Origin: Vermamoeba vermiformis | Lineage: Eukaryota | Direction: 5' to 3' | DNA: 64,000 nucleotides | Assembly (NCBI GenBank): GCA_045837725.1 | Contig: JBEWZL010000151.1 | Span: 124,001 to 188,000 of the forward strand | Shown: positions 22,476 through 47,236 of the stretch, piece after piece | Numbering within the stretch: position 1 is the stretch's first letter | How the letters are laid out: each line of letters starts with the position of its first letter | Notes under the pieces: model-generated | What the model was told of the DNA's origin: nothing | Database searches by the model: none | What the model saw: the letters and a program-made list of their open reading frames with translations, nothing else | Made by a program: the position numbers and the translations under genes

Positions 22476-25400
22476 CTATATTTTGAACTCGTCCATATCA
22501 TCATCGTCCAAAAAGTCGTCTCCAAACACCGGATCTGACTCGCTTCCTAACAACTTTTCCATCGATCTATTCGAATTGTTACCAGGCTTCACGCTATCCG
22601 TACTCTCCGTATTAGATGTATTATTATCATTATTAGCGTTGGTCATCTGTTCTGTAATCAATGTCTCCGAGTAATATTTGACGCACTTTGGGAATATTTT
22701 TGTGCAATAAAATGCAAATAATTCGTCCACTGTTTTGCTCTTAGCAATAATTTTGCTTTGAATGACTTCAGGGCTCTCGTCATCTTTTTTCAAAACATCG
22801 CAGTTTTCTATATCCACGGTACGTTGTCGGAAAAATCTTCGAATAATATCGACCTGTTCGTCAATGATCGCTTGACTATATTTGGTAAAGTGATCGGAAC
22901 CTTCTAAAATAAACTTTTCCTTGCGCGCCATGCACGAATCAAACGCTTTTTGTTCCCATTCTTTCAAACTCTTTTTGTCCGTAATTGAGCCACGCAAATC
23001 TATCGTATGATCTACCGCCTAAAGTGAAATTTCCGTCAGGGTTATCCTTATAAGGAAATGAATTCATTTCAACTTACAGTGATGCATTGAGCTTCTTCGA
23101 GCCAAAATTCGCTCGAGTTGATTTTGCTGTAGTCAATTGGTGCCACCAACGCCACACTAAAAATAAAATTGATAAATTGGGTGATTATCCTTATAAGGAA
23201 ATTTTTTTCTACTTACCCTCCGAACAAGCTCTTGTGAAGCACGGCAATTTTTCTAAAGTACTGCGCAATAATTTCATGAACGGCCTCTCGTACGGGCTGG
23301 TCGAAATATTCCAACAGTGAAATTCCTTCACGACGCACTAAGAAAATATCGCTGATGCCCTTCCTCTTCTTTTTCTTTCGCCTACAAAATTACGATGTAA
23401 ATACTATGTAATTTTTATCTGGCAGTCTCTTACTTATTTTTCACTAAGAACGTCAAATCGCTGGTATTGATCACGAGATCTATCATCAACTCCAATTCTT
23501 TTCTGACTTTCAATTGATAGCGCTTCACTTTATCGCTAAAAATTTCGAGATTTCGTTGCAAAGTAACGGACTCTAAGTTCAGCTCCGCTTTAAGTTTCTC
23601 ACGCTCTTCACGTCTCTTCGCTGAAAACCACGATGACGAGTCGTTTGGACGAGTGCCACTAACATTATTATTAATAACTTTTGATAATATTAATTTACCA
23701 TATTTGGCACTTACTCAAGTTTTTGATACAATGTGAGCAATTCTTTTAGCTCCATAGTGATCGCAAATCGAGCTCGTTGGTCGAGTTTCTAATTATAGTA
23801 GTGCGGTTAGATCTTGCAATAATAAACCATTAATTAATATTACCATAAATCTACTGCACAATCTACGCGAGACACGTGGCCTCAAAATTTCACTGAACCG
23901 TAGCATGAAGGTGGGCAAGCCCGACAACTCCGCTGCTAGATCTCCCAAGCTTGCCTACATAATCGTGCCGTTAGGATATAGTATGGACGATATAATGAAC
24001 TTACATTGCTGGACTTAGTGTTTAAGAATCGCACGTATTGTTCGATGCGTTTTTCGGATCTGCTCGCAGAGTCGCTGATATCAAGACTAAGCTCGTCATC
24101 ATTAAAGGGTTCGACCTCATCAAACTCGTCGCTATAACAACGTCAGATGTGCATATATATAGTAAACTATATAGTGATCTTACGGCTCATTGGGGTTGAG
24201 AATAGTGAACTTGAGGATCGAGTTCAAAAAGTCCAAAAATGTAATCCACATCTTCTTTAAATCGTAGCGCTCCTTATTGGATAAGCTACCTATACCAAAA
24301 GAGTGTGAGTATATATAGCATATTACGAGGTTCATTGCAGTAGGGTGGCACGTACCTTTTCGCATCCGATCTTTCAGGTTCTCGATGTTGATAAACTCGC
24401 TAATCAATTTAAAACAACACACAGGCAAGCGATGTCTGTCTCCTGCTTCGTAGAACGAGCTGGCAGTGTCTAGCTTTTGGCTGACGCAATAATCGAAACC
24501 CTAAAAATAAATCGATCAGATCCGGACCAAAAACATCGGCTAGGCGACAAAGTAAAACGAAGAATATGGGGATAATAGAGAGGCAAAAAACTATTTGCGT
24601 GCACCGGGAGTCGAACCCGGGACACCAGCTTGGAAGGCTGGTATGTTACCGTTACACCATGCACGCTTGATTGATGGCGGCAGCGCCGATCCGCGTCGCC
24701 TGGTTCGAAAAACCACGCTGCATCGTTTGCGGCACTGTATTATCAGCTAAACGCTTAAATATGCTTGATCATAGCTGTAAGGTATGATTGAATGCGACTG
24801 AGTCGCCTTGAGGGATCTCAAAAAGATCAAGCACAGCTACACATGTTTGAAAATGTAAAAATTTCATCAATTACACAAGCTTCGCGAGAGATTATAGTGG
24901 TACACCTGCACTATGGTGACAGCGTATAGCTTCAATTTCAAAGGTGCGGATCAACGTGCAGCCGAACAAAGCTTTGTAAAATATATTCTCTTCACTGTTC
25001 TCCTAATTGTCTCGTACTGATAAGAGGCTGAATTTAAATATAAAAGGGTGGGGAAGAATATCATTTGATGCTGCTTGCAGATCCGCGAGCAATTAAGCCA
25101 AAATCGATGGAAAAGAATGTAGCATGCAAAATCTCGAAGATTGGTATCAAAGAGGTAAATAACTAGCAGTAAGAACGAAGGAGCAAAAGCGACAAAAAGA
25201 GAAACAGCTCGAGATTCAAAGAAAAAGGCAAAAAAACTATTTGCGTGCACCGGGAGTCGAACCCGGGACACCAGCTTGGAAGGCTGGTATGTTACCGTTA
25301 CACCATGCACGCTTGGTTGATTTCGGAAACCACAACGCTGAGTGCCTCCTGGCTAAAGGAAAATGAGTGCTTACCTTTTCTTTTTCGTCCTTCACCGCGT

Positions 25401-28041
25401 CGAATCCCGTTATTGCAATCGCACCAGGTGCCGTGCCCTTCGTAATACTCCGCATCAGACGAATGTTCTCGGTGATCGGATCGTTCTCGTATGCAGCTGT
25501 GAGGTACAACTGAAAACAGATCTGTTAGCCAAGAGCAAAGTTCGTGCACGAGGTGAGTCACGTACCCAACAGTCCACATCACGGGCCTGTGCTTGGCTGC
25601 GCTTAAGTCGATAATCCTCTGCGAATGTTTTGCTGTCAATGTTCCAACCAGGAGTGTCCATGAAAGAGATGTACTTCAACAACGGCTTGTCCAAGTACAA
25701 CTTGACCTTCTTGACTATGTCAGCGACTGAAGCGTCGCCCTTCTTATCCTCCAATTTGATAAACTTGAGCACTTCTTCTAGTTTATCGAGCTCGACTCTG
25801 CTTTCTGTTTGGTGTTGCTCGAACAGCGTAATCAAGAGCTGCTTCCTCGCTTTCAATCGTTGTTCGTGCTGTTGTAAACTCTCGATACGCTTAGCTCGTT
25901 CATCAGCAGTCATACCCAACTCTTCAGCAGCGGACTTTTCGAGTACGTGCAAGTCCCTAACACGACTTAGAAACGTGATATTGCGATGACAAAATACTTA
26001 CTTGGAAGCGTGAGCTATCTCTCGGTCAAACGGTGCAATGACCTCGCTGAACTCCTCTGGCGAAATGAACACGACTTCGGCCATTTCTGTTCGTCGCGTG
26101 CCCGAGGCATTGTAACCGCCATCCTGGCAGTAATCCATGTGCGAGATTTCTGTCGTGGCACCTGTACTTTCTCTGATACTCGTAAACACGAGCATTTCTC
26201 CCAGTAGCGTGTTGAGCATTGTACTTTTGCCTACTGAAGGTGCACCAAAGAACGACACTAAGAACGGTCTCTTGAAGATTGCCTCTGCCACGGCGACGTT
26301 ATAAAATAGCCCATCCTCTTCATTTCTTGCTCCTAAGATTCGTTGATAATCTTTTTCGAACTCCCTGGCAATATCTTCGAGTTCTAATCTTCAGTTAGTC
26401 ACGGTTGTCATTTCCAACAAATAACTAACCTGATAAAGGCTTGAGCTCGTGCAACATGAATTCTTCGAAGTCGAGTAACGACGGAACTGTAGTGTCAACT
26501 TTAGGTTGAATTAGTCTCTGAGCGGACTCTGCCTTTGGATTGAAGTTTAAAGCGTAGTACAAGAACATCAAGCCAACATCCACTTCACGCTGAGGGCCGA
26601 CGATAGACAAAATTAGCTCTTTCTTGCGAATAGCGTTTGCAAGCGCTAGTTTGTCCTTCAAAGATAACACCGTGACGATATGTTTCTAAAACCGATTGGT
26701 AAGTACTATCCGATAAAATCTATGCAAAGAGAAGTACTTACGAGCGCTTGATTCAACGCCATACAGAGCCATCGGAATGGGATGACAATGGGCTGAGCAG
26801 CTGTACTCGTTGTCACCCTGATGACTCGCTTCTCGATTGAAATGACAGCAACCTTTGCAGACACGGAAAGTCTCCGTGGCTCCGCAGAAGCGTTCTTTGC
26901 CATTTTGACGTCGTCGATGATTCTATCTATGAACTGTTTGTAGTGCTCCAAAGAAGTTCTCATTATCTTTAAGGCACGGAAGCACATATCAAGCGCCAAG
27001 AGGTATGACAGATTGTGCGTCAGAGACTCGGGCGAGTTGAACACTTTCGACAGGTCTTGTTGTCGTGACCGCTCACTCTCTGAAATACTCTCGGGGTCCC
27101 TGAACAACAAGCTCGACATCTTCGAATGCAAAGATTAGTCATTGGTTGCTAAACAATGATATCGAGTACCTTGAACGCCGTGGCAAACTGTGCCAGTGAG
27201 GCGTTTGACTCGGGCGGAGATGCTAACACGACACCCTTGATATTGGACAACATTGCCTTATGTTCGTTCAAGCTAATGATGACTAGCAACTGCTTTACAA
27301 TGGCCTCCGGTAAAGCTCCTTCTGCTACAAATACGAGTGGTCGCTTGCCCAACTGCGAGACAAAATTGCAAATAAGAAATAATGATGATATTGGTGAATA
27401 TTAAAATATTAATTACCTCGTTATCAGTGCAAAGACGTTTGAATAAAAATTGACTCATCGTTGTTAACGGAAATTGAGATCCAACGTAGTCTCCATTTAT
27501 ATCGGTCCAAGACACTATTTCCTCAATTAATAGATGAAATATATATATATAGTGGTGCATACCGTTTAGTATTCTTGTTTCTAGACCGAAAATGGAAAAT
27601 TTAGAGGCAAGATCAGCCGAAGCGTTTACCAGTACAATATCCAACAAAAATTCATCCGTTAGCTCCACAATATCAACATCGAAGCCTATAATAATATTAG
27701 CGAATTATTCTAATAAGATTTTGCGAGCAAACTCAATTCTAAAATTGTACAAGATCTGAATTTTAAAATTTAATTGAAAAATAATTCGGCTACTATCGGC
27801 ACTTACCAATGAACGGCTCCACGGGCTCGTTATTATCGACGGAATTGCTATCCGATAAAGCATCTGTTCTGGATGTAGTTGTACCAGCGTCAGTATCGAC
27901 GGATTCATCCAAGGCCTCCAACTTAAATATTGTAGCCGATAACGAGCCTTAAAATATCATTTAATTAGTAATACAATAATCAGCAATAGCGAAACTGAAC
28001 TTACGCTTCGGCTCAGGGGAGTTGGACATACGAATAGACAT
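22476..28041 (-). CDS. Large multi-exon protein: degenerate SERAC1-like alpha/beta-hydrolase region plus dynamin-like GTPase domain and helical C-terminus
   Basis: The exon junctions checked splice in frame. GTPase motifs are GAPSVGKST (G1), TGATT (G2), FMDTPGW (G3) and ITGFD (G4-like). The N-terminal region has LGKRPLVFVA...IVKQLL...IKGVVLASPP. The start is 28041 or 28029. Confidence 0.72.
24596..24666 (-). tRNA. tRNA-Gly (anticodon TCC)
   Basis: 71-nt cloverleaf: GCGTGCA/TGCACGC acceptor stem, CCAGC-CTTCCAA-GCTGG anticodon arm, CCGGG-TTCGACT-CCCGG T arm, followed by a T-run terminator. Confidence 0.97.
25143..25376 (-). repeat. tRNA-intron cassette, copy A (inverted relative to 32846-33084)
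   Basis: AG|GTAAGCA donor, 62-nt leader, tRNA and ~100-nt pyrimidine-rich trailer all align with the RNR1 intron. Confidence 0.92.
25242..25312 (-). tRNA. tRNA-Gly (anticodon TCC)
   Basis: Identical 71-nt sequence to the other two copies, with a downstream T-run. Confidence 0.97.
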
Positions 28042-28877
28042 TTATGCTCTTCTATTCATAAGGGCTTATTTTAGTATCATATATGTGTCTATTCAACGAT
28101 GCGTTTGATTTTTTTAAAATGGCAACAACTCCGCTTGAATATTTAGGCGTGCTATTTTAGGTTAGCCCGCAGTATTTGTTCGACCTTTCTTAAACCACAA
28201 CCACAATACTAATAGCATAGTAACACGTGCAGTAGAAGCTGCATGACCTAGCAAATAGGTCATTGGATCGGATTTGGTTCAACCAAAAATAGGCCTAGTG
28301 CAAGATTTTGAGCTGAAATATTCACTGTGCAATCAATAAGTTCTTGATAATTGTTGTATGGCTATGATTTTGAATCACGGTAATATTTAGGGCAAAATTA
28401 GAAATTATTTGTTCAAATGATAAATACTTAAACATTATTACTTGGACCGCTTAAATTAAATTTATTACCTGTAATTTATTCTATGATTATCATTTAATCG
28501 GCGTAAAATGAGCATCCACGTCAAGATTTAGCTTGTTGATTTGGCGCCTGCCTTCGATGACAGCGCTGATCATTGTAATTCCGTGAGGCAAAGTAAAGCA
28601 TAATGCAAGAACAATACCACGCTTCGAGCGACGTGTGGTGTAAAACCGCATGGAAGGGGAATCTGACACGACCGATTTTTTGGCGTGTCACCGTCAGCAT
28701 GCAACAGCCATGCAATGCCCGAGTATCTATACTCACTAGGGCTGTACCTCTCGTATTCTCCGGGTGATTAAGTCAACCAGAGGTTCGCATCTGTCTACAA
28801 TAAAAAGGGTGGATTTATTATTATTATACAACAAATCCAAATATTATATTACATGTGCTACTGTACAAATAGCTATT

Positions 28878-30065
28878 TTAGAAGTCAGCGTCGAGAGTGA
28901 AGATGGCGTTATCAGCGCTGGAGCTGGTGACACCGGCCTTTTGGTACTCGGCAACACGTCGCTCGAAGAAGTTGGTCTTGCCTTGCAAGGAGATGAGCTC
29001 CATCCAGTCGAAGGGGTTGGTAGCGTTGTACTTCTTATTGTAGCCCAAAGACAACAACAAACTACGAGGTAGGCGTTAGCAAGGAGGATCGAAATGAAAA
29101 GCCCGCCAAAATATTTCGTGGAAATTTGACCGTTGAGTTTAATGAACTTACCGATCAGCGCAGAACTCGATGTACTGTTGCATCAAGACAGCATTCATGC
29201 CAATAAGGGCAACGGGGAGGGCATCGGTAACGAATTCCTTCTCGGACTCGACAGCGTCGCTGATAATTCGGTGCACGGTAGATTCAGGCAATCTGTTCTT
29301 GAGCATTCCATAAAGGAGGCAAGCGAAGTCGCAGTGCAAGCCCTCGTCTCTGCTAATTAATTCGTTGGAGAAAGTGAGGCCGGGCATCAAACCACGCTTC
29401 TTCAACCAGAAGATGGAGCAGAACGATCCTGAGAAAAAGATTCCTTCGACAGCAGCAAAGGCAATCAAACGCTCAGCGAACGAGTCTGCGTTGTTGATCC
29501 ATCGAAGAGCCCATTCGGCCTTTTTCTTGACGCAAGGAACCTTGATAAAAAATAAATATCAGTAATTTGACCTAGATGAGCTTACAAAATGCGATATCGC
29601 GTGATTAAATAATGTACAAAAATAGTAGATAATATTACTTACAGTTTCGATGGCATTGAAAAGTCGGTCTTTTTCTACTGGATTCTTAACGTAAGTATCG
29701 ATCAGAAGCGAGTAAGTCTCAGAGTGAATATTCTCGATGGCAATTTGGAAGCCATAGAAGCAACGAGCCTCGGGAATTTGAACCTCGCGCATGAACTGGC
29801 CTGCGAGATTCTCGTTGACGATACCATCTGAAGCAGCAAAGAAGGCCAAGACGTGCGAAATGAAGTGGCGCTCGTTGTCGTTGAGCTTGAGGGCCCAATC
29901 GTTAATATCAGCAGACAAGTCGATTTCTTCGGCGGTCCAGAAGCTAGCTTCAGCCTTTTTGTACATGGACCAGATCTGCGGGTATTGAATAGGGAACAAT
30001 ACGAATCGCTTCTTGTTCTCTTGAAGGAGAAGCTCTTCCTTTTCTAAAGCCTTGATATTGCTCAT
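28878..30065 (-). CDS. RNR2: Ribonucleoside-diphosphate reductase small subunit (class Ia R2); exons 30065-29643, 29540-29152, 29061-28878
   Basis: [60 protein letters not shown] and C-terminal FTLDADF. Confidence 0.98.
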
Positions 30066-30363
30066 CGCGTTCGGATGTGTGTTTCCAGGTATTTCTAAAT
30101 TGACAGAATTAATTTGTTCCGTTCAATTTTTTTTACTTATACCACGCGGCACGTGATTTTTCAGCCGACCAATCACATCGCTCCGTTTTCCGCGGCCACG
30201 TGGCCTCAGATCTATCCGTTACGGAACAAAGTTCTCGAAAAAGAAACGGTCAGAATGTTCTATCTCCAGAATACGCGCGAAAAAAAAAGTCAAAAACCAT
30301 TCGCCGCCGACAAATATATTAACGTTTACTTTTTATTACTGCTCAACACAAGACCAGAAACAG
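30066..30363. promoter_or_regulatory. Bidirectional promoter shared by RNR2 and RNR1
   Basis: 298 bp between divergent ATGs. Contains CACGTG (30150), CCAAT (30169), TTTTCCGCGG (30186), the palindrome GGCCACGTGGCC (30194-30205) and the E2F-like CGCGCGAAAA (30274). Confidence 0.65.
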
Positions 30364-33300
30364 ATGTACGTGATCAAGCGTGACGGTCGTAAGGAGGAGG
30401 CAAGTATCAAATTGATACGCTGAATGGCGTGTAATATGCTTCATCGATGGGCTTATTATTAATATATTGGTTTATTATAGGTTAAATTCGACGAGATTAC
30501 TGCTCGTTTGAAATACCTCGTCGAGATGGCGCCAAGACTTCCTGAAGCCGTGGATCCTGTCCTCGTTGCTCAAAAGGTTGTTTTGGGTGTCCACCCTGGT
30601 GTAAAAACTACCGAACTCGATAAATTGGCCGCTGAGACCGCTGCCTACATGAGCACAACTCATCCTGGTAAGGATCGGTTTTTTTGAAATTAATTAAATA
30701 ATACTTTCTTAGTTTGCTAATAAAATTATTAATCGCAAACAATTAAATATAGGCTATGCTGATTTGGCTGCCCGTATTGCCATCTCTAATTTGCACAAGG
30801 AAACTAGCGCTTCCTTCGCGGAAACGATCGAGAAGATGTACAAGTAAGTGGCGCTTAATCAACTTGATTTATTTGTTATACGCGGAAATATAAGATATTT
30901 GTGGCGAATAGATATAATTTAATCGTGATGCCACGCGATTTAAACTTTTCCCCGCGCAAAGTAGCCGTTTTCTGTATTCTCGATCTTGTGACTAACCCGC
31001 GCACTTCAGGTATGTGAACCCCAAGACCGAACAACACAGTCCCTTGATCGCCGATGATGTCTACAGAATTGTTATGGCCAACAAGGACACTTTGGAAGCC
31101 GCTATTGACTACAGACGCGACTTCGAGTACGAATACTTCGGATACAAGACCTTGGAGCGCTCTTACTTGACCAAGCTTAACGGACAGATCGTCGAGAGAC
31201 CTCAACACTTGTTGGTAAGTAGCTCGTTGACGTACACGGAGTAATGGGCTCGATCTAATCCGTTTGACAGATGCGTGTCGCTGTTGGTATTCACAAGGAA
31301 GACATGGAGTCTGCTATTAAGACTTACAACTATATGTCTGGCAAGTGGTTCACTCACGCCACTCCCACTTTGTTCAACGCTGGTACTCCCATCCCTCAGA
31401 TGTCCTCGTGCTTCTTGTTGACCATGAAGGGCGACAGCATCGAAGGCATCTACGAGACTTTGAAGCAATGCGCTTTGATCTCCAAGAGCGCTGGTGGTAT
31501 TGGTCTCAGCGTTCACAACATTCGCGCTGCCAACAGCTACATCCGTGGTACCAACGGTACTTCCAACGGTCTCGTGCCTATGCTCAGAGTGTTCAATGAC
31601 ACTGCTCGCTACGTCGACCAAGGTGGAGGTAAACGCAAGGGTGCCTTCGCCATCTACTTGGAGCCTTGGCACGCAGATATCTTCGACTTCCTTGACCTCA
31701 GAAAGAACCACGGCAAGGACGAACAACGTGCCAGAGACTTGTTCTTCGGGCTTTGGGTCCCTGACTTGTTCATGAAGAGAGTCGAAGCCAACGGCAACTG
31801 GTCTTTGATGTGCCCTAATGAATGCCCGGGTCTCTGCGACTCTTGGGGTGAGGAATTCGAGCGATTGTACGAGAAGTACGAAAACGAAGGCAAGGCTCGT
31901 CGCACTGTCAAGGCTCAAGACCTCTGGTTTGCCATCGTCGAATCTCAAATCGAGACTGGTACTCCCTACATGCTCTACAAGGACGCCTGCAACGGCAAGT
32001 CCAACCAACAGAACTTGGGTACCATCCGCTCATCCAACTTGTGCACTGAAATCATCGAGTACACCGCTCCTGATGAGGTCGCCGTTTGCAACTTGGCTTC
32101 CATTGCTTTGCCCAAGTTCAGCAAGGAGGGTCACTTCGATCACGACAAGTTGTACGAGATCACTTATCACTTGACTGGCAACTTGAACAAGATCATCGAC
32201 TTGAACTACTACCCCGTTCCTGAGGCCCGCAACTCGAACATGAGACACAGACCCATCGGTTTGGGTATTCAAGGTTTGGCTGACGTATTCATGGAGCTTC
32301 GCATGCCTTTCGAGAGCCCTGAGGCCCGTCAACTCAACAAAGAGATCTTCGAGACTATCTACTTCGCTGCCTTGACTGCCTCCAAGGACTTGGCCAAGAA
32401 GCACGGTCACTACGAGACTTTCCCTGGCTCTCCTGCCAGCAAGGGTATTCTCCAACCTGACATGTGGGGCGTCGTTCCTTCTTCCCGCTGGAACTGGAAC
32501 CAATTGAAGGACGAGATCAAGACTCACGGTCTTCGTAACTCTTTGCTCGTCGCTCCTATGCCCACTGCTTCTACTTCTCAGATCTTGGGCAACAACGAGT
32601 GCTTCGAGCCCTACACTTCCAACATGTACACTCGCCGTGTCTTGGCTGGTGAGTTCACCGTTATCAACAAGTACTTGCTCCGCGACTTGATGGAGCTTGG
32701 CTTGTGGAACGATGACATCAAGAACAAGATCGTCGCTGAAGGTGGTTCCATCCAAAACATCTCCGAGATTCCTCAAGACTTGAAGGAGTTGTACAAGACT
32801 GTTTGGGAGATCAAGCAACGTTCTTTGATCGATATGGCTGCGGATAGGTAAGCAAGCATTTTCCTTTAGCCACGAGGCACTCAGCGTTGGCGTTTCCGAA
32901 ATCAACCAAGCGTGCATGGTGTAACGGTAACATACCAGCCTTCCAAGCTGGTGTCCCGGGTTCGACTCCCGGTGCACGCAAATAGTTTTTTGCCTTTTTC
33001 GTTTTTGAATATCTCGGGCTGTTTCTCTTTTTGTCGCTTTTGCTCCTTCTTTCCGAGTGCTATTTCATTTACCTCTTTGAAACCGGATCTGACCCTTTTG
33101 TTTGCAGAGGTGCTTTCATTGATCAATCTCAATCCTTCAATGCGTTCATTGCTCAACCCAATGCTGCTAAGCTCACTTCCATGCACTTCTACGCCTGGAA
33201 GAAGGGTCTCAAGACTGGCATGTACTATCTCCGTACCAGACCTGCTGCTGAGGCGATCAAGTTCACTGTCGATCAGGCCAAGTTGAAGGCTCCTGTTACC

Positions 33301-33414
33301 GAACAACGACCTGCCGCTTCACCTGTTAAGGCTGAACCTAAGGCTGCTTCATATGAAGACGAAGACGGCCCTGTCTGCACCATGAAGGAGGGTTGCTTGA
33401 CCTGCGGATCTTAA
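30364..33414 (+). CDS. RNR1: Ribonucleoside-diphosphate reductase large subunit (class Ia R1); exons 30364-30399, 30481-30667, 30753-30843, 31010-31214, 31271-32847, 33108-33414
   Basis: ATP-cone [51 protein letters not shown] and C-terminal CLTCGS. Intron 1 is GC-AG. Confidence 0.98.
32848..33107 (+). other. 260-nt final intron of RNR1 containing a tRNA-Gly gene (cassette copy B)
   Basis: GAT AG|GTAAGC...TTTGCAG|A GGT restores the conserved [15 protein letters not shown]. Confidence 0.95.
32910..32980 (+). tRNA. tRNA-Gly (anticodon TCC)
   Basis: Identical 71-nt cloverleaf followed by AATAGTTTTTT, a Pol III-type terminator. Confidence 0.97.
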
Positions 33415-33705
33415 GATCTCAAACTTGCGCTTTTGTATTGTAGCATCGACTAATATCGAAACTACAATAAACTATGTATAAAACTGTTTAATATTACACG
33501 TGTTTGTGCCGGTCCAATAACAATTTTTAACCGCGTTGATCTCTGGTCCCGTTTTCGGTCGTACCAAAGAAAGAAGGCTAGTTGCCATAATCGTAACATA
33601 CGCTATTGCATTGCAATACAAATTAATATTTCAGCACGGCGGCGCAGCCAAGCAGGAGCGTCCATCTCAGCATTTCTATTTTTGTTATTAATATCTACGA
33701 CCACA

Positions 33706-35342
33706 ATGATGCAACACAGATTATTACTGTTATCATTATTACTGCTAGTTACAGCTGGTATTCATGCGGAGTTGAGATTTAGTCCAAGCAAGCTGGAAAA
33801 GGAGTTTCACATCCCTCTGAAAGGACATCTCAGATCAGATGATGTTGAATTGAGGGATTCGAGATATAATACCTTTAGCTGGAAGATTAAACAAAAAAAT
33901 TACGACTGTAACTAGATTTTTTTTAATTTTCCAATTTTCGAAAAATAATAATTTCGCAGGTAACCCTATATCTTTATCACCAACGAGTGGAGAATATACG
34001 TCTAGCCAAAGAATAAGCATATCATATGATGAAAGCGCATTGCGTCGTACAGGTTCGTTTGAATGTCAGATCGTAATTGGAAACCGAACCGTCAATGCAC
34101 TGGCAGAGCTGTGGATTAAATACAAAGTAATTTCAGGTATGAAAATGTTCTGTTGTTGCTGGAATATTGAATTTTTATTAATTAACGTCAGATTACTGCT
34201 ACGACCAAACGAATCCGGATTTCTATTGCCAAAAAGAGACCCCTCATACCCATTGCGATTTAACATCTGGAAACTGTGTATGCGATAAGAATTACTACGG
34301 CCAGTCTTGTACACGCTACTGTAACACTACAACTTGCGCGCACGGAACTTGCAACACTGGATCTGGCACCTACGAACCACTTTGTAATTGCCAGGTAATT
34401 TCTAGTCAATTTCAATGTTATACATATCTAATAGTATTATTTAGAGCAATTATTATGGTACAAAGTGCGATGTTTTTTGTAACGCCGCTTTGAACTGCAG
34501 TAGCTCAAATGCTCATTGCAACCCAAAAGGTGCTTGCGTCTGCGATGATAATTATTACGGAAAGGTATAATATATATTGCTATATAGTAGCTTGTTTGTT
34601 TAACGATCGTATTTTTTCTCAGGATTGTGAGATCTACTGTTCGCCGGCTGTTACGTGCAAGTACGGTGGCATTTGTACCGACCAAGGCGAATGCAAATGT
34701 GATACAGGTAGATACGGTAAGCATTGCGAGTATATAGAGTGTCCTACTTGCATTCATGGAACTTGCAATAATCAAACTGGTACTTGCGAATGCGAAAAGA
34801 ATTATTATGGAGATAATTGCGCGAATTTTTGCAATCAAACGCTTTGTGGCTATCATGGCAAGTGTAATTTTACAGGCGAATGTAGCTGCGATTTATATTG
34901 GCACGGAAAATATTGCGCCAAGTATTGCAACGTGTTTGAATGTGGATCTCGTGCGTTTTGTAACGCAACTTTTGATTGTCAATGCAGAGAGAATTATTAT
35001 GGCGACAATTGCTATGTTTTCTGCGCACAAAATATGAATTGCTTTCATGGTATTTGCAATTCGACTGGTGGATGTGAGTGCAACGAAAATTATTTCGGCG
35101 AACAGTGTGAACGATACTGCGTTGCAGAAGATACTTGCAGCGGTCGCGGAAAATGCGATAATAAGACAGGAGCGTGCATTTGTGACGACGAATATATGGG
35201 ACCTGGATGTGGGGTTACAAAGACGACTTTTTGGTTGGCGTTTAGTGGAGTAGCCTGTGGTATTACTATCATCGCCGTCGTAATAATTATCGTTATTCGA
35301 AGAAAACGAGCTAAAAAACTCGTGTTTGAGGTCATTAACTAA
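33706..35342 (+). CDS. Type I membrane protein with tenascin-like EGF repeats
   Basis: Signal peptide, repeated CxxxGxC...CxCxxxxxGxxC units, TM FWLAFSGVACGITIIAVVIIIVI and a basic tail. Confidence 0.85.
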
Positions 35343-39361: not shown

Positions 39362-42300
39362 ATGAAAAATATATTATTGTTGACCATTTTATTGCTAGTT
39401 GGCCTTTGTTTGGCGGTGGATATGCAAGGTAGGTTTTCCCGATGGCTTTTGTACAATCCAAATTCTAACTGAACTCCTCCAGCTGTGGAACGAAAGCATA
39501 AGTTTGTGCAGCAGCGGTTGCGCGATTTTGAGCAAACGCAGCCCACGGTGCGCTACGCTGATTCAACTGGCACCGCCCATCTTATAACGGAAACTCAACG
39601 AAGTCTTGCTAAGCGCTCCACTTGTAAGATCATAAAGAGATTTGAAATAATTTTAACCCACGTAATTAGATGGCTCAGTTTTGGAAGGATTAGAGGCTTT
39701 CCTTGCTGCTCATCCCGAGATCGGAGTCAAGGATTACAAAACCGAACTCGTGGAGGTCTCGCGCCATCCAGACGCTCAAATTAAGACTTTAACTATGATA
39801 ATTTATCAGCAAGTAAGTAAATTAATTAGCAACGAGGAACGGGCAACGTAAATCCGTTTTAATTTAACTTTAATTTTGAATATTTCAGATGCACAAAGGA
39901 GTCAATGTCGCGGATTCATTGTTGAAAGTCCTATTCAATACTCAGAACCAAGTTGTATCCGTTTCTGGCAACATTGTTCCCGATCTCGACTTGGATGTGG
40001 TTCCGAAACTCTCTCAAGGTGACGCCATTGAACTTGCTCGTCCTGCTTTGCCTACCGATATGTAAGTTTATCAATACTCCGTATTTTTCGCAAATTAATT
40101 AACGCGTTTTTAGGTCTTTTTCTTTGGCCGAACCTACTTTGGTAGTTTACCGTACAAAAATGACTAGCGGAGAAGTCGGCACGAATCATTTAGCCTATCA
40201 CGTGATCTTCAAGTGCACGCAGCACCTCGAGTCCCATTATGTCTACGTCGACGCACACGACGGCGCAGTGTTGAACTCGTTCTGCCCGGATGCACACGCA
40301 CTCAACCGCACTGCCATTCTCTTTGGAAAAGGCACAGTGTACACTGAAGGCAGTTCTTTGCCTGACGACGCACAGGCTAAACTTGTTGTCCAGATCAATG
40401 GTGTTCAGTATAATGCTATGATGAACGTCGGTGGCTACGACAGTTGGGATCTCAACGGTACGTACCAAAGAATTCGTTCCGAAATTTCATGTTGCGTTCT
40501 TTACTTTGATACCAAAACGTATTTTACAAGCACAATATAAAGTTGGTATTGCCACATACCACCTGCAGCTCAGGATTTAAACACTATAGCTGATCCGTTG
40601 GATTTAGGCGGCGAGTTCAAAAATACTATCAACGTGCCCACGAACGGCTATCCACAGTTCATTTGCCCTAACGCTGCTTTCTATGGAGCTCCTATTGGCG
40701 CGCTGTACTGTCCTGGTTTTGCTTACGGCATCGACGTTATTGCTCACGAGTTCGGTCACGGCTACATCCGAGGCAGTACGTACAACACTATTACTACAAA
40801 ACTATAATTATGCAAACACGATCATCAGTATCAATATGCTACTGATAATATTTTTTTCTTACATGTGATGGATCGACTAATTTTTTTTTGTTGGTAGTCG
40901 TTGGATCTGGTGGTTTAGTCTATCAAGGTCAAAGTGGAGCATTGAACGAGGCCTTTGCTGACGTTCTAGGCGAGACTATGCAAATGGTGCTGAAGGTTCC
41001 TCAAGACTACCCTGTCAGATCTGACCGCAGTTGCACGACTGTTGGTGGCAGTCAACGATGGATCCTCGGGGATAATCTCCCTGCTGAACAACAGCAATTC
41101 CCGAACATTAATGGAACTAGAATTGGTCAGTACTAAGATTTCACGGAAATTTCATTCCAATACTTATGGGTGAGGCGTCCTAACTAACCAAATTTGGTTA
41201 GGTCTTCGTGATATGTTCAGTCCAAACTGCTTCGGTGATCCTGCCAGCACAGATGACCGCAACTTCTTTTGTGGAAGTGGCGACAACGGCGGCGTCCACT
41301 ATAACTCCGGAGTTCTCAATCAGGTCTACTCGCTGTTCGTTGACGGCGGCGAGTTCCGAGGTACGACGTACACTGGCGTTGGTCTTATCAAGGCGTTCCA
41401 CATCTTCGTTCGTGGCCTAGCGAAGCACGTTCCTACCGCTACATTTGCACAAAACTCCGATTACAATCAAGCCGTAAGTACTGAATACAATTATTTCAAA
41501 CTTTATTTCGGATCCGACTAAATCAATTTCACAAAAGTCGTCTTATTTATAATACTAATGCGTTTTTACAATCAGGCATGCACTGAGTTAGCCAATGCCG
41601 GCACTGATCTCGTTGATTTGTTGACTGGTGACCCTACCGGCCAAATCGTGACTAGCGACGATTGCTCTACTTTGGGTAAACAATCAACGTATTAAACCAA
41701 TTTTAAGCAAATACTAATAATCTATTTTTAGCTGACTTGTACACCGCTGTAAAAATGACGGGAACAATTTGCGGAGTTACACCACCTGCACCTTTGCCTC
41801 CTCCGATAATTGTCCGAGGACCATTCCCGCCGCTCATCTTGAACGTTGGCTTGGATGTTGTGTATTGGTACGATATTGATAACGTTCTTATTGCGGGCCT
41901 CGCAAAGATTGGTAGCTCACTTTTTCCATATTAGGCAAACGTCTAACTGGGGAGACCGCCCTGTTCAGTGCAGATTCGTCGGTTATGAAAACAATCCATT
42001 CGCAGGAGATAAAGTTCAAACTCAACTCGCACAGTACGTCTATTGCCCGATTCCTGTTATTGGTGGTACTGGCCAGGTCCAGATCCAAATTAGCGCTGGA
42101 ACTACTTGGTCGGATCCGTACACTTTAATCGTTATTGGTACGCTGCACACATCATACCGTTATCACAATGCAATATCTAATTCTTCGAATTATTTCTAAA
42201 GATGCTTATTCGTTGACTGCTTACGGCCCAAATTACGGCCCACTCGAAGGCGGAGTGACGATTCAAATTGAAGGTAGTGGCTTTGTGACCTCAACGACTG

Positions 42301-43070
42301 GCTGCAATCCGACTGCTGATTCCGATGGATTTGACTGCACCGCGTGCTTTTTCGGCTACAACGCTAATGGTTTGCCTGTTCCCGCCATCGTTGACAGTGC
42401 TACTACTGCAAGGTAATGCTTTGGAGCTAATTGCTATATTTGATCACGTGATTTCTTCGGGCGCGATTGGAATTACTGACCAAACATGGTTTTTCATTTT
42501 TTTGTCGGGAATTATTTAGCTGAGCCTAATATGGTCATGAAAAATGTACTAACCTAATATGGTAATAGCTGCGTGAGTCCCGATTGGAACAATTTGGATA
42601 CCACGAACAAAACAGTTGAGATCTGGTTGTCAATGAACTATTTCCTCGCTGTTGGACCCCTTTACTACGAGTATAGGGAAGGAGGTACGTAATATATATA
42701 TTCCCGTAACGGCTACGTCAAAAGAAAAAAATAGTAAATTGCGCAGATACGGATCTGATTTAAATTTTGCCTATTGATTGAGTCAATCTAATCATATTTT
42801 TACGTACAGTTGGCCCTGTCGGAGCAGTTCCGTTGACTGCAGCGCCTTTCGCGTTCGCTCCTCAGACTCCCACCAGCACTGTAGTCACTCCCATTGCAAC
42901 TCCCGTAGCGAGCACTCCGCAAAAGAAATCCGCTGCTACTCACAATGAAGGTAATAATAATGACATTGCAAAGATTATCTGTTTTCACCTGGTAACTGAT
43001 TTTTTTTCTATTTTTAGCGATTATGTCGACTTTATTGGCCGCGTCAGGATTGTTGATGTTGGCGCTCTAA
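39362..43070 (+). CDS. Peptidase M4 (thermolysin-like) preproprotein with IPT/TIG-like domain and hydrophobic C-terminus, copy 1
   Basis: Signal peptide, FTP/PepSY-like propeptide (YVDAHDGAVL), CPNAAF, DVIAHEFGH, GALNEAFAD, DNGGVHYNSG, GPLEGGVTIQIEGSGF and a terminal hydrophobic stretch. Confidence 0.9.
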
Positions 43071-43337
43071 GTACTATATTATAGGTACTAATGATTGCTT
43101 GTCATACTTATAATAATTGCAATTTACCTCAAAACTTCGTTTTATCTTTTAACAGCCTTTTTAATGGCGGTTTATGCGTCATCGTTGCATCAACGCTGGT
43201 ATTCGTGATTATTAGGGTTGATTTTAATAGCCGATTTATATTAAATTGTTAAATTAAAGTCGTTTTTAAAGTTTGTGGGCGGACACAAAATCTAATTCTG
43301 CCGGCTGTTTTTTTTAATTTTTAACCACAACAACAAC

Positions 43338-46300
43338 ATGAGAAGCATCATATTATTTGTTGTTCTATTGTCCGTGTCCTTGTCGTTGGCAATTGACTTC
43401 GAGAGTAAGTACAGATGCCGTTGAAATCAACATCCGTTTAATGTCGTGTCACAGCTGCCCAACGCAAACATGAGTTCGTAAAGAAAAGAATACAAGATTT
43501 TGAGAAGACCCAGCCAATAGTGCGCTATTCTACTGCTACTGGAACTGCGCATCTGGTTACTGAAACTCCGAAAAGTCTGGCTAAGCGTTCTACTTGTATG
43601 TAAAATTTTAAAAAATATCATCATATTAACAATCATGATAGACGGATCGGTATCCGAAGGTTTAGAGGCTTTTCTCGCAGCTCACCCCGAGATCGGGATT
43701 ACAGATGTCAAAACTCAACTTGTTGAACTCTCTCGCCGACAAGATGCGCAAATTAAAACACTAACTTTGATCACTTATCAACAAGTAAGTAAATTCGTTA
43801 AATTGAATTTAAAGTTTTAAAGGAATTTGAATTGTAAATTTGACACAAACTCCTGTTGATACGGAATTCTGACTCTCTTGTAAATTAGGTATTTAAAGGC
43901 CTTACTGTTGACGGATGCTTATTAAAAGTGATGATCAACACGGAGAATCAAGTTATCTCCGTTTCTGGCACGATTGTCCCCGCTCTCGACTTGGATGTGG
44001 TTCCGAAACTCTCCGAAGATGACGCCATTGAACTTGCTCGTCCTGCTCTTCCGACTGATATGTAAGTTCATATAATAATATAACTAAATATCATGCTAAT
44101 ATCCGGATTTAATATTTTTTAGGACTTTTACTATTGCAAAGGCGAATCTGCTCGTTTACCGTACCGGCATGTCGAACGGAAAAATAGGCACGAATCATTT
44201 ATCCTACCACGTGATCTTCAAATGCACGCAGCACCTCGAATCTCATTATGTTTACGTCGATGCACACAACGGCGCTGTATTGAACTCGTTCAGTCCTGTG
44301 TTCCACGCACTCAACCGCACTGCCATTCTGTTCGGTGTGGGCACGGTGTTCACTGAAGGCAGTTCTTTGCCTGACGATGCACAGGCCAGACTCGCTGTTG
44401 AGATCAATGGTGTTGAGTACAATGCTATGCTGAATGTCGGTGGTTGGGACGGTTGGGATCTCAACGGTACGTACCAGCTTGACGCACCTTATATACATAC
44501 ATTAGTTTATATTATAACTGATATCATCATATGAGATTATGATACCACATTTAGTAACAGAATAACGGATTCGGATCTGATCTAAACTGATCCGTGGATT
44601 TAGGTGGCGAGTTCAGAAACACTATCAATGTGCCCACGAACGGCTATCCAGAGTTCAAATGTCCCAATGCAGCGTTTTTTGGTGCTCCGACTGGCGCTCT
44701 CTATTGTCCAGGCTTTGCTTATGCAATTGACGTTATTGCTCACGAGTTCGGTCACGGCTACGTCCAAGGCAGTACGTACAACAATATTACAAGAAAAGCT
44801 TTTAATATTATAGAGACAATCATCAGGATTAATATTCTATTGATAATGTATTTTTCTTCATGTAATGGATCGACTAATATTATTTTGTTGGTAGTCGTTG
44901 GATCCGGTGGTTTGGTCTATCAAGGTCAAAGTGGTGCATTGAACGAAGGCTACGCTGACATTATGGGCGAGACTATGCAAATTTTGTTGAAAGCACCTGT
45001 AGAATATGCTCCGAGATCGAATCGAGATTGCACGGTTCCGAACGGCAATCAACGCTGGATTATTGCTGACAATTTGCCCGCAAACGTTCAAACTTTCCCT
45101 AATATTAACGGAGATAACCTCGGTACGTACTCGAAATGTAGCTTTACGAAATTTCAAGATTGACACGTTCAAATGCAAATCACGTTTTTTTTCACACTCC
45201 GAATATAAGAGTTTCATTCATTTGCAGATCGATGCTTTAGTTCCGACATGTGACACTTTATATATATAAAGTGACACGTGTCATTTTTGTCCTATGCTAA
45301 GGAAACTTTAATTTCAATTTGCATCAGTCATGCAATACCAAAAAAGGAAATTAAGATCGTTATTTAATATGAGCTTGTGTGCTAATATAGATTTTCAGGT
45401 CTTCGTGATATGTACAATCCAAGCTGCTACAGAGATCCGACTACGACTTACGACTCCTCCTTCGTTTGCAATCCAGACTACGACAACGGTGGCGTGCACA
45501 CTAACTCCGGAGTGCTCAATCAAGTCTACTCGCTGTTCGTTGACGGCGGTGAGTTCAACGGTACCACCATCACCGGAGTTGGTCTGACCAAGGCTTTTCA
45601 CATTTTCATGCGCGGATTGGCGAAGCACGTGCCTTATTCTACTTTCAAACAACACGCTGATTACGTTGAAACGGTAAGTTGGGCGTTAATCCTCTCGCGA
45701 GATTTTAGGCGATATGTCTAAAACAACTGGCGAGACTCGTACTGCTTTAGGTCATGTTATTTATTTATTTGTTATATATAGGCATGCGCGGAGCTTGTCG
45801 GTGTAGATCTTACTGATTTGTTGCAAGGCACAGCGACTGGCCTCATGGTGACCACCACTGATTGCAATACTTTAGGTACGAATGGTCTTTATTACAACAG
45901 CAATTCGTGGAAAAAAATTGATTATTTCTTTATATAGGTACTATTTATGGCCTTGTTCAAATGCGAGGCGACATTTGCAACCAAACTTCAACTACTTTGC
46001 CAGATGCAGTTGTCGTTGCCGGACCTTTTCCTCCCGTAGTATTGGACGCTGGATTGGATTACGTTTACTGGTACGGCGATCAATTTTTACTGGAATTTAT
46101 AAGTTTGCTGAATTTTCCTTTTTAGGCAAACTATTGGCTTCGCAGCCCGCGGATCTGTTGGCTGCAGATTTGTTGGTTATGAAGGCCAGGCTTATGCTGG
46201 TGGATATTTCTTGACTCAATATTCAGAATATGCTTATTGTCAGATGCCTACTTTCTCAAGCGTCGGCAATTATCAGATCCAGATCTCTGCGGACAACGTA

Positions 46301-47236
46301 CTTTGGTCGGATCCGTTCAACTTAACAGTCATTAGTAAGCTATATTATACTATTTACTAGTGTCAGAGTGACGAGTATATTAACATTTTTGCTATTAGCA
46401 AGCTACAGCTTATCTGCTTTCGGGCCGACATACGGTCCAATTGAAGGCGGAACCACTGTTCAAATTGAAGGCACCGGATTCGTCAATTCATTCACTGGAT
46501 GCAATCCCACGGCCTCCTCCGATGGATTTGATTGTTCCGCATGTTACTTCGGATACTCTGCGTCTGGTGTGCCTGTTCCTGCCACCGTTAGTTCCGCTAC
46601 TCAAGCAAGGTACGTTCAATCTTTGCAGAAATTCTTATATCGGAAATTCGATGTACCTAAATTAGGCAATTTTTATATATAAGGAAGTCTTACGAATTGA
46701 GCCGTACAAAGCGGTCTGAAAATTTTATAATTTTTTTGTTCGAGAATTTGTTCTTAAGAATGCTAATATGGACATGAATTTCGCCGGACATAATTAGAAT
46801 TACTAACCTAATATGGTAATAGCTGCGTGAGTCCTAATTGGAACAATTTGGACACCACGAACAAAACAGTTGAGATCTGGTTGTCAATGAACTATTTCTT
46901 AGCGCTCGGTCCTATGATATTCGAATACCAAGAAGGAAGTACGTATCATTAATATTACCATATTTGGTAATAAAGATATTTATTCTAACGTTCCTTATCC
47001 TAGTTGGACCTGTCGGCAATGTTCCATTGACATCCGCTCCATTTGGCGTCAAAACACCCATTTCTTCACAAACTCCTAAATCAAATGTCATATCAGCTGC
47101 TAATACTGAAAGTAAGTTCAATTAATCTTGAAATTATTATTTGCGCTCGATCTGTCGATCTAACGATTTTCCTTCATTTTTAGTTGTTGCCTCATCAGTG
47201 CTCATTTTATCGAGCGTAATTATTGCAATGGTCTAA
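43338..47236 (+). CDS. Peptidase M4 preproprotein, copy 2
   Basis: HEFGH, GALNEGYAD, DNGGVHTNSG; same exon layout as copy 1. Confidence 0.9.

What the first reader, a model, noticed from the sequence alone, without database searches (positions are those of the whole stretch)
25143..33107. A tRNA-carrying spliceosomal intron shared by two unrelated genes (candidate tRNA-bearing introner)
Seen: the last intron of RNR1 (32848-33107, +) and an intron of the unrelated dynamin-like gene (donor 25374, -) begin with near-identical sequence at the first intron base: GTAAGCA..CATTTTCCTTTAGCCA.GAGGCACTCAGCGTTG..GTTTCCGAAATCAACCAA (5 mismatches in 62 nt by my count). An identical tRNA-Gly(TCC) follows at the same 62-nt offset, sense to the host transcript. 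About 100 nt of alignable trailer follows, ending ATTTACCTCTTTGA.ACC. Similarity stops at the exon boundary apart from the exonic AG, and the two introns differ in phase (2 vs 0). Known: introners are mobile elements that create introns, and tRNA genes do occur in introns. I am not aware of a copied intron unit whose cargo is an intact tRNA gene. Inference: a splice-site-bounded cassette has moved between genes, so tRNA copy number can grow inside coding genes at little cost. An alternative is ectopic gene conversion between tRNA loci that ended at AGGTAAG microhomology.
Basis: partly seen in the sequence, partly recalled or inferred. Interest (0 to 1): 0.88.

Follow-up and report, generated by a model that had tools for sequence, protein, structure and literature searches.

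The report
tRNA-carrying intron segment shared by neighbours
Two unrelated neighbouring genes of a eukaryote carry, starting at the first base of an intron, the same ~240-base segment with an intact glycine tRNA gene; it looks like a local copy between introns that already existed, not a proven jumping, intron-making element.

Summary
The last RNR1 intron (32848-33107, +) and the 5' end of an intron in a dynamin-like GTPase gene (donor 25374, -) align at 221 of 240 columns from the exonic AG and intron GT onward. Both hold an identical 71-nt tRNA-Gly(TCC) at offset 62. RNA confirms the RNR1 splice.

Three corrections:
- The GTPase intron is 874 nt (24501-25374), placed by a homologous protein. 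No RNA covers that gene.
- It holds a second, older tRNA-Gly(TCC) copy (24596-24666), so three copies lie within 8.4 kb.
- The RNR1 intron position also exists in relatives at 93-97% and 84% protein identity. It is therefore probably older than the roughly 8% flank divergence of the two copies.

I found no terminal inverted repeats, no target-site duplication, no unusual fold and no further copy in the window. No genome was held, so genome-wide copy number is untested.

Best reading (0.5): a local DNA-level copy or conversion among intronic tRNA-Gly genes, bounded at the 5' splice-site consensus. Whole-intron transposition (0.22) and a tRNA-cargo introner family (0.08) remain open. Interest is moderate.

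The parts
32848..33107 (+). Copy A: the last intron of RNR1, 260 nt, phase 2, GT..AG.
   Evidence: An RNA-run contig joins 32845 to 33106 (GT..AG). 23 and 31 raw RNA reads of two runs of a 90-95% identical relative span the same joint. The flanking exons give ...MAADR|GAFIDQ..., as in the spliced homologs P0002 and P0004.
32848..32909 (+). Leader A, 62 nt, from the first intron base to the tRNA.
   Evidence: 57 of 62 positions are identical to leader B.
32910..32980 (+). tRNA-Gly(TCC) copy A, 71 nt. A run of six T begins 6 nt downstream.
   Evidence: ARAGORN; Rfam tRNA 69.4 bits; sequence.
32981..33084 (+). Trailer A, alignable to trailer B.
   Evidence: 86.7% identity over 105 columns.
33083..33107 (+). 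Branch-site-like CCGGATCTGAC, pyrimidine tract and acceptor AG of intron A.
   Evidence: Sequence. 19 of 25 positions match the last 25 nt of the 874-nt intron. The motif is enriched in the window.
24501..25374 (-). Intron of the dynamin-like GTPase gene, 874 nt, phase 0. It holds copies B and C.
   Evidence: Homolog P0243 is continuous across its residues 91/92, which map to 25375 and 24500 (tblastn). No RNA covers this gene.
25313..25374 (-). Leader B, 62 nt, starting at the donor GTAAGCA.
25242..25312 (-). tRNA-Gly(TCC) copy B, identical to A, followed by a run of seven T.
25143..25241 (-). Trailer B. Similarity to A ends at ...ACC, and no acceptor follows.
24581..24687 (-). Copy C: an identical tRNA-Gly(TCC) at 24596-24666, with only about 21 nt upstream (16 of 21 match A) and about 16 nt downstream shared with A and B.
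   Evidence: 102 of 107 positions match A. The trailer beyond 16 nt is not similar (score 6.5 against a shuffle mean of 10.1; 1972 of 2000 shuffles do as well). Leader similarity is reached by 2 of 2000 shuffles.
24501..24525 (-). Branch-site-like CCGGATCTGAT, pyrimidine tract and acceptor AG of the 874-nt intron.
25375..25509 (-). GTPase exon ending ...DAVKDEKEK, upstream of the intron.
   Evidence: Matches P0243 residues 47-91 at 51% identity.
24353..24500 (-). GTPase exon starting GFDYCVSQK..., downstream of the intron.
   Evidence: Start of the match to P0243 residues 92-180, E 9e-9. The exon end at 24353 is read from the GTACGT donor.
24906..25108 (.). A 203-nt stretch inside the long intron that one DNA contig lacks (depth 138.6 of about 455).
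   Evidence: table 5.

Best explanation
A local cluster of three functional tRNA-Gly(TCC) genes sits inside introns of two neighbouring genes. The genes are RNR1 and a dynamin-like GTPase gene, 7.5 kb apart and on opposite strands.

Copies A and B share about 240 nt because one was copied onto the other at the DNA level. The route was either ectopic gene conversion or break repair templated by the other intron. The identical tRNA (71 nt, plus about 37 nt of conserved near flank) gave the homology to start on. Any tract running further would have destroyed the exon and been lost.

Both introns existed beforehand, so the event duplicated or refreshed a tRNA gene inside an intron and did not create an intron. 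Each tRNA is transcribed by RNA polymerase III from its internal promoter and ends at the T run.

Shown:
- the homology and its limits;
- the intact tRNAs;
- the RNR1 splice;
- the 874-nt extent of the GTPase intron, by protein homology;
- the presence of the RNR1 intron position in relatives.

Inferred:
- the conversion or repair mechanism;
- the order of events;
- expression of the tRNAs.
For: 1. Clustering and orientation. Three identical tRNA-Gly(TCC) genes lie in 8.4 kb and there is no other tRNA in the 64 kb. A and B are inverted 7.5 kb apart. B and C are direct repeats 646 nt apart.
2. Graded flank similarity. A and B share -62 to +104. C shares only about -21 to +16. This points to repeated local copying of one tRNA family at different times.
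3. Selection on the tRNA. It shows 0 differences in 71 nt, while the A/B flanks show 12 substitutions in 160 aligned non-gap columns plus 7 gap columns (counted). The tRNA is under selection or conversion, and the copy is not brand new.
4. No acceptor in B. Similarity stops at 25143, and the intron continues 617 nt to a separate branch site and acceptor.
5. Age of the RNR1 intron position.
   - Genomic ORFs of close relatives, P0003 (543 aa, 241-kb contig) and P0261 (558 aa, 21.5-kb contig), stop right after ...MAADR.
   - In an 84% relative, P0266 reads 23 residues into an intron after MAADR. P0265 starts 7 residues before GAFIDQ.
   - Reads of a relative differ from the window at 260 places over about 3.5 kb of exon (the exon length is my estimate).
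   - By my inference this implies synonymous divergence near 0.3, against about 0.08 between the A and B flanks.
6. No mobile-element hallmarks. There is no TIR or TSD, and the fold z-score is -0.81, with 44 of 200 shuffles folding as well.
7. Local duplication is common here. The window holds several tandem and inverted paralog arrays.
Against: 1. Similarity begins at the first intron base in both genes and includes the uncommon GTAAGCA. A random conversion endpoint would seldom do this. My microhomology-plus-selection account is untested.
2. The last 25 nt of intron A match the last 25 nt of the 874-nt intron at 19 of 25 positions, with CCGGATCTGA in common and the same 14-nt spacing from branch site to AG. 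If that is homology, then A equals the two ends of the long intron, which favours whole-intron copying. The motif cGGATCTGA is enriched window-wide (17 matches at up to 1 mismatch against 1.97 expected; 13 exact GGATCTGA), so this stays inconclusive.
3. Genome-wide copy number is unknown.
4. The age argument assumes that the intron flanks evolve at the synonymous rate. It also assumes that the relatives seen as proteins and as reads are comparably distant.
5. No RNA covers the GTPase gene, so the 25374 donor and 24501 acceptor rest on one homolog at 26-51% identity.
Confidence: 0.5

Rival explanations
1. Whole-intron transposition. An entire ~260-nt intron carrying the tRNA gene was copied from one gene into the other, from 5' splice site through branch site and acceptor. 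The route could be reverse splicing plus reverse transcription and recombination, or DNA-level copying. It may have landed at a position that already held an intron. The GTPase copy later gained a 617-nt insert containing tRNA copy C.
For: - Homology starts at intron base 1.
- Intron A equals the first 232 nt plus the last ~25 nt of the 874-nt intron (19 of 25, same spacing).
- In the passages I read of the review PMC3443670, homologous introns in unrelated genes are described as mostly lying at pre-existing intron positions. The review treats them as candidate transposition events.
- This genome lacks an RNR1 intron (between NNECF and EPYTS) that its close relatives have. This is the kind of precise loss usually ascribed to cDNA recombination.
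Against: - The 3' similarity may be only the branch-site consensus, which is enriched in the window.
- A second event is needed to explain the 617-nt insert.
- C's flanks look older than the A/B split.
- There are only two copies and no RNA evidence.
- By the review's own account reverse splicing has not been shown in vivo.
Confidence: 0.22
2. A tRNA-cargo introner. A multi-copy mobile element bounded by splice signals carries a tRNA-Gly gene and creates new introns where it inserts.
For: - The unit is donor-anchored in two unrelated genes with different phases.
- At 260 nt it is longer than the other RNA-supported introns here, which are 56-102 nt.
- Six eukaryote-type RNR1 ORFs on contigs of 30 kb or more run straight through the site (P0122, P0125, P0134, P0139, P0143, P0164). 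The RNR1 intron position is therefore lineage-specific.
- The GTPase site is uninterrupted in homolog P0243, which lies on a 568-kb contig.
Against: - The window holds only 2 copies.
- There is no TIR or TSD and no stable structure.
- B has no acceptor of its own.
- The RNR1 intron position predates the A/B similarity.
- Nothing was found in the metagenome, prokaryote-genome or viral collections. Those collections are poorly suited to a eukaryote, so this is weak.
Confidence: 0.08
3. Old resident copies kept alike. Both introns have carried the unit since before the split from relatives. The flanks stay similar through ongoing conversion between the inverted repeats, or through constraint on sequences needed for tRNA expression.
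For: - The RNR1 intron position is old.
- The back-translated first 70 nt of the 84% relative's intron resemble leader A more than 498-499 of 500 residue-order shuffles do.
- The leader (92%) is better kept than the trailer (87%).
Against: - Control introns score up to 10.1 against 11.4 in the same back-translation test, so the hint is weak.
- C, in the same intron, has not been kept alike beyond -21 to +16.
- This reading still needs an original copying event that ended at the donor.
Confidence: 0.15
4. Chance resemblance or assembly artefact.
For: Short-read contigs break inside the tRNA.
Against: - The alignment has E 2e-79.
- The copies differ at 19 columns.
- Both are anchored to unique exon sequence by independent contigs with 0 differences.
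- RNA splices out intron A exactly.
Confidence: 0.02

Closest known systems
Homologous introns in unrelated genes, ascribed to intron transposition (Mycosphaerella and Oikopleura cases, as summarised in the passages I read of the review PMC3443670)
   Same: Intron sequence is shared by unrelated genes with similarity bounded by the splice site. In the review's account most such events lie at positions that already held an intron, as I infer here.
   Different: Here the shared part carries an intact Pol III gene. One copy covers only the 5' quarter of its intron. The two genes are neighbours 7.5 kb apart, so plain DNA-level conversion is a simpler route.
Introner-like elements of fungi and introners of algae and other eukaryotes (PMC3609843 and PMC9860276: search listing and abstract starts only; PMC11282704 and PMC12130899: term searches)
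   Same: The unit is longer than ordinary introns and starts at the donor in different genes.
   Different: Those families have hundreds of copies, and the fungal ones have stable predicted structures (abstract of PMC3609843). That many introners have TIRs and TSDs is from my recall. Here 2 copies are seen, with no TIR or TSD and no special fold. Term searches of PMC11282704 and PMC12130899 turned up no tRNA-carrying introner: PMC11282704 mentions 'tRNA' 6 times, never in connection with introners, and 'SINE' 0 times, and PMC12130899 has 0 mentions of 'tRNA', 'SINE' or 'cargo'.
Intronic tRNA genes, e.g. in Caenorhabditis elegans (PMC4999229, passages read)
   Same: Functional tRNA genes lie in introns of protein-coding genes, often in the sense orientation. 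In that paper 44% of 609 tRNA genes are intronic and 56% of those are sense.
   Different: The passages I read report conserved tRNA-host pairings. They do not describe a shared donor-anchored flank between hosts.
Local duplication of tRNA genes with their flanks, and tRNA-derived SINEs (recalled; not tested against a paper)
   Same: Copy C shares roughly the span of a Pol III primary transcript with A and B. A and B share longer flanks, as after a segmental copy.
   Different: SINEs begin at the tRNA-like head. Here 62 nt upstream of the tRNA are copied, which argues for a DNA-level copy and not a Pol III-transcript retrocopy for A and B.

Membership tests
Introner / introner-like element | Many near-identical copies (tens to hundreds) as introns of unrelated genes in one genome | not testable with these tools
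   No genome is held. There are 2 copies in the 64-kb window. Scans of the metagenome, prokaryote-genome and viral collections gave 0 hits. No other window of this genome has notes.
Introner / introner-like element | The element supplies both splice sites, so the whole intron is the element | tested here: inconclusive
   In RNR1 the unit fills 237 of 260 nt and the rest is a branch site and acceptor. In the GTPase gene the unit is only the first 232 of 874 nt and has no acceptor of its own. The 3' ends match at 19 of 25, but the motif is a window-wide consensus.
Introner (DNA-transposon type) | Terminal inverted repeats and target-site duplication | tested here: not met
   With a 7-nt seed, the repeat finder gave 0 direct and 0 inverted repeats around A. 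Around B it gave only three 8-10-nt A/T-rich pairs, none at both ends of the unit.
Fungal introner-like element | Predicted secondary structure more stable than expected | tested here: not met
   MFE -64.3 kcal/mol against a shuffle mean of -60.7, z -0.81; 44 of 200 shuffles fold as well.
Introner / intron gain | The intron is absent at the orthologous site in close relatives (recent gain) | tested here: not met
   For RNR1, relatives at 93-97% (P0003, P0261) and 84% (P0266, P0265) are interrupted at the same site. For the GTPase gene only a distant homolog could be read; it is uninterrupted (P0243).
Functional nuclear tRNA gene | Cloverleaf with anticodon, internal A and B boxes, downstream T-run terminator | tested here: met
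   ARAGORN reports Gly(TCC) three times. Rfam gives 69.4 bits against a cut-off of 29. GGTTCGACTCC in the T arm and T6 or T7 runs 6 nt downstream are read; the box consensus is recalled. Expression was not tested.
Spliceosomal intron (RNR1 copy) | Removed from mRNA at GT..AG | tested here: met
   One RNA contig and 54 raw reads in two runs span the joint.
Spliceosomal intron (GTPase copy) | Removed from mRNA at GT..AG | tested here: inconclusive
   RNA depth is 0 to 0.7 over 23700-28604 in all three RNA runs. The model rests on P0243 being continuous across 25375/24500, on the reading frame, and on the branch-site motif at 24516-24525.

The most novel reading that the evidence does not exclude
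A splice-signal-bounded intron cassette with an intact tRNA-Gly gene as cargo copies itself as a whole intron into other genes. The route could be RNA-mediated transposition or an unrecognised DNA mechanism. tRNA gene number would then grow inside coding genes. The two copies here would be the first seen of a family, or of a recurrent process, in this lineage.
Probability: 0.12. Interest if true: 0.8.

Novelty: new variant of a known kind. Interest (0 to 1): 0.4.

Why it matters
If the copy was made intron to intron, it shows a cheap way to duplicate a tRNA gene. The new copy lands in sequence that is spliced out, so an essential host gene such as RNR1 is unharmed.

It also gives a datable example of intron sequence moving between unrelated genes with one end exactly at the splice site. 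That bears on the long-running question of how intron sequences spread (transposition, conversion or mobile elements).

If more copies turn up genome-wide, it would be the first introner I know of with a functional RNA gene as cargo. My three literature searches and term searches in two introner papers found none. Those searches cover open-access text only, and supplements were not seen.

Tried and rejected
- Metagenome scan with a pattern covering the near leader and the tRNA start: 0 hits.
- Metagenome scan with the RNR1 tail peptide, to fetch relatives' loci: only 3 distant loci at 35-38% identity (L001-L003). They were not used.
- The same or a similar DNA pattern in prokaryote genomes and viral contigs: 0 hits each. 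Neither collection is expected to hold this eukaryote.
- Earlier-findings look-ups by place, sequence and relatives: nothing for this genome.
- Protein search with the GTPase P-loop exon, lengths 'longer': no hit.
- Protein search with the ORF spanning trailer A plus the last RNR1 exon, meant to recover relatives' intron-derived extensions: only distant exon matches, 72% coverage at 43-64% identity for most rows. It was uninformative.
- Representative search with the exon + leader + tRNA read-through of copy B: no protein carries the leader peptide. Three hits are unrelated tRNA-like or repeat ORFs (P0241, P0242, P0246) and two match a repeat motif (P0249, P0250). The query's own ORF is not in that library either, so this says nothing about copy number.
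- RNA support for the 25374 donor: none, because the gene is essentially unexpressed in the three RNA runs laid.
- Homology of C's trailer to the A and B trailers: rejected.
- TIR or TSD and structure: rejected.
- Back-translation of the 84% relative's intron read-through against leader A: a weak hint only.
- A literature search for nuclear intronic tRNA genes in fungi returned mostly mitochondrial genome papers.

Full report
**1. What is in the sequence**

The last intron of RNR1 lies at 32848-33107 on the + strand and is 260 nt long. Its flanking exons read ...MAADR and GAFIDQSQS.... The Arg codon is split after its second base, so the phase is 2.

On the - strand, an exon of a GTPase gene ends ...DAVKDEKEK at 25375. 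It is followed by GTAAGCA at 25374, giving phase 0.

BLASTN of the two regions gives 221 identities in 240 columns (7 gap columns, E 2e-79). The alignment starts at AG|GTAAGCA and ends at ...ACC, which is 33084 in A and 25143 in B. The parts compare as follows:

| Part | Result |
|---|---|
| Leader | 57 of 62 identical |
| tRNA | 71 of 71 identical |
| Trailer | 86.7% over 105 columns |

ARAGORN calls tRNA-Gly(TCC) at 32910-32980 (+) and at 25242-25312 (-). Rfam scores all three at 69.4 bits against a gathering score of 29.

**2. It is not an assembly artefact, and the RNR1 splice is used**

Contigs of a DNA run cover 25301-26493, 31978-32921 and 33020-33500 with no differences (table 8). These tie leader B, leader A and trailer A to their own unique exons.

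A contig from an RNA run (98% identical to the window) joins 32845 to 33106 with GT..AG ends. Raw RNA reads of two further runs, from a relative only 90-95% identical, span the same joint 23 and 31 times. They carry one different letter at the joint (tables 5 and 5c).

The GTPase gene has RNA depth 0 to 0.7 over 23700-28604 in all three RNA runs. Its donor therefore could not be confirmed by RNA.

**3. The GTPase intron is 874 nt and holds two tRNA genes**

The gene is a weak match to Dynamin_N: E 7e-6 at 26.5 bits, just under the cut-off of 27. The nearest Atlas clusters are also Dynamin_N, at score 0.90.

A full HMMER search with the exon plus read-through found one true homolog, P0243, at E 7e-6. 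By tblastn its residues map as follows:

| P0243 residues | Window position | Match |
|---|---|---|
| 5-47 | 25691-25563 | 63% identity |
| 47-91 | 25509-25375 | 51% identity |
| 92-180 | 24500-24201 | 26% identity, E 9e-9 |

The protein is continuous across 25375/24500. The frame is kept (phase 0). A branch-site-like CCGGATCTGAT with a pyrimidine tract and AG ends at 24501.

The intron is therefore 24501-25374, and copies B and C both lie in it, in the sense orientation. After the shared segment ends at 25143 there is no branch site or acceptor. Copy B thus has a donor but no acceptor of its own.

**4. Copy C**

C shares with A and B the tRNA, about 21 nt upstream (16 of 21 match A) and about 16 nt downstream.

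Beyond that its trailer is no more similar to A or B than shuffled sequence: score 6.5 against a mean of 10.1, with 1972 of 2000 shuffles doing as well. Its leader is similar only through the proximal stretch (2 of 2000 shuffles).

Where A and B differ near the tRNA, C has A's state (GGCG, and T6). C is thus an older or independently derived member, and A and B are the recent pair.

**5. The 3' ends**

The last 25 nt of intron A and of the 874-nt intron match at 19 of 25. They share CCGGATCTGA and the same 14-nt spacing to the AG. If this is homology, intron A equals the two ends of the long intron.

However, CCGGATCTGA at up to one mismatch occurs 17 times in the window against 1.97 expected (0 of 100 shuffles reach 17). 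GGATCTGA occurs 13 times exactly, several of them just upstream of likely acceptors. It looks like an extended branch-site consensus of this organism. I rate the 3' homology as suggestive but unproven.

**6. Tests for a mobile, intron-making element**

- The leader and trailer have only these two copies in the 64 kb.
- The other repeats in the window are gene-sized paralog arrays.
- There are no terminal inverted repeats or flanking direct repeats.
- The intron folds no better than shuffles (z -0.81).
- No genome is held for the window.
- Scans of metagenome, prokaryote-genome and viral contigs found nothing.
- The scan's notebook has nothing on this genome.

Genome-wide copy number therefore remains untested. 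That is the main gap in this report.

**7. Age of the intron positions**

Close relatives of RNR1 appear in the protein collection as unspliced genomic ORFs. P0003 (241-kb contig) and P0261 (21.5-kb contig) both stop directly after ...MAADR. The spliced form from the same clade, P0002, runs on into GAFIDQ.

In a relative with 84% identity, P0266 reads 23 residues into an intron after MAADR. P0265 begins 7 residues before GAFIDQ. The spliced forms P0004 and others are continuous. The intron position is thus shared by at least three lineages.

It is not universal. Six eukaryote-type RNR1 ORFs on contigs of 30 kb or more run straight through it (P0122, P0125, P0134, P0139, P0143, P0164).

The relative's reads differ from the window at 260 places over about 3.5 kb of RNR exons (the exon length is my estimate). 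Protein identity is near 97%, so I infer a synonymous divergence of about 0.3. The A and B flanks differ by 12 substitutions in 160 aligned columns, about 0.08.

If the flanks evolve roughly neutrally, the A/B copying is several times younger than a split across which the RNR1 intron position is conserved.

The back-translated start of the 84% relative's intron resembles leader A more than 498-499 of 500 residue-order shuffles do. Control introns come close, though (10.1 against 11.4), so this is only a hint that the unit is old in RNR1.

For the GTPase gene, only P0243 can be read. It is a single ORF on a 568-kb contig, and it has no interruption at this site or at two neighbouring intron sites. 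That organism is distant, at 26-63% identity.

**8. Explanation**

The simplest account is a local, DNA-level copy between two introns that already existed. It took place within a small cluster of intronic tRNA-Gly genes.

The identical tRNA plus its conserved near flanks (about 108 nt shared even with C) offers homology for ectopic conversion or templated break repair. The copied tract would then extend outward.

The donor consensus AG|GTAAG is the first sequence the two introns would share on that side. Tracts running into the exon would be lethal in RNR1. Both points would place the surviving boundary at the splice site.

This mechanism is inferred and not shown. I give it 0.5. The rivals are:

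- whole-intron transposition (0.22), favoured if the 3' similarity is real homology;
- old resident copies kept alike (0.15);
- a true tRNA-cargo introner family (0.08);
- artefact or chance (0.02).

**9. Comparison with what is known**

Intronic tRNA genes are ordinary in some genomes. In C. elegans 44% of 609 tRNA genes are intronic, and 56% of those are sense to the host (PMC4999229, passages read).

Introns with homologous sequence in unrelated genes are known and are mostly found at pre-existing intron positions (review PMC3443670, passages read).

Introners and fungal introner-like elements are defined by many copies, and the fungal ones by stable structure. I saw these papers only as a search listing and the start of their abstracts.

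Neither introner paper I searched by term mentions a tRNA-carrying introner. PMC11282704 uses 'tRNA' 6 times, none for an introner. PMC12130899 has no occurrence of 'tRNA', 'SINE' or 'cargo'. My searches for such a case found none. They cover open-access text only, and supplements were closed.

**10. Verdict**

The finding is a real and tidy case of a donor-anchored intron segment, with an intact tRNA gene, shared by two unrelated neighbouring genes.

The claim that it is a mobile intron-creating cassette is not supported by anything I could test. Two features weaken it: the conserved RNR1 intron position, and the lack of an acceptor in copy B. It cannot be excluded without the genome.

Noticed in passing
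window 24596-24666 (-): A third identical tRNA-Gly(TCC) lies in the same GTPase intron, 646 nt from copy B. It shares only about -21 to +16 of flank, roughly the span of a Pol III primary transcript.
   Followed up: yes
window 1-64000; e.g. 9895, 18389, 24523, 33085: The motif cGGATCTGAy is about 8-fold enriched (17 matches against 2 expected at up to 1 mismatch). It often lies 12-25 nt before an AG, so it looks like an extended branch-site consensus of this organism.
   Followed up: partly
window 32300-32400 region of RNR1 (between ...NNECF and EPYTS...): Close relatives (P0003, P0261, P0005, P0260) carry a short intron here, seen as a 17-residue read-through or an early stop. A distant genomic ORF (P0122) also breaks here. 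This window has none, so the intron differs in presence between close relatives.
   Followed up: partly
window 24906-25108: One DNA contig at about a third of the depth skips these 203 nt inside the 874-nt intron. Other small indels nearby are carried by contigs of similar depth. This suggests a second haplotype or nucleus type.
   Followed up: no
window 28850-33411: RNR2 (-) and RNR1 (+) lie head to head, with about 250 nt between their starts, and both are well expressed. This is a divergent pair of the two subunits of one enzyme.
   Followed up: no
window 31271-32845 (+): The large RNR1 exon is 77-81% identical to the alpha subunits of many Bacteroidota. That is nearly as close as its next eukaryote-like relatives outside its own clade.
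   Followed up: no
window 400-5700; 39600-47000 with inverted partner 54700-57300; 47500-49300; 49700-52500: Several tandem and inverted paralog arrays at 71-92% identity. The region is rich in local duplications.
   Followed up: no
window 34494-35342 (+): A 282-residue ORF made of cysteine-rich EGF-like repeats (C..C..NYYG..C), ending in a hydrophobic stretch and a basic tail.
   Followed up: no
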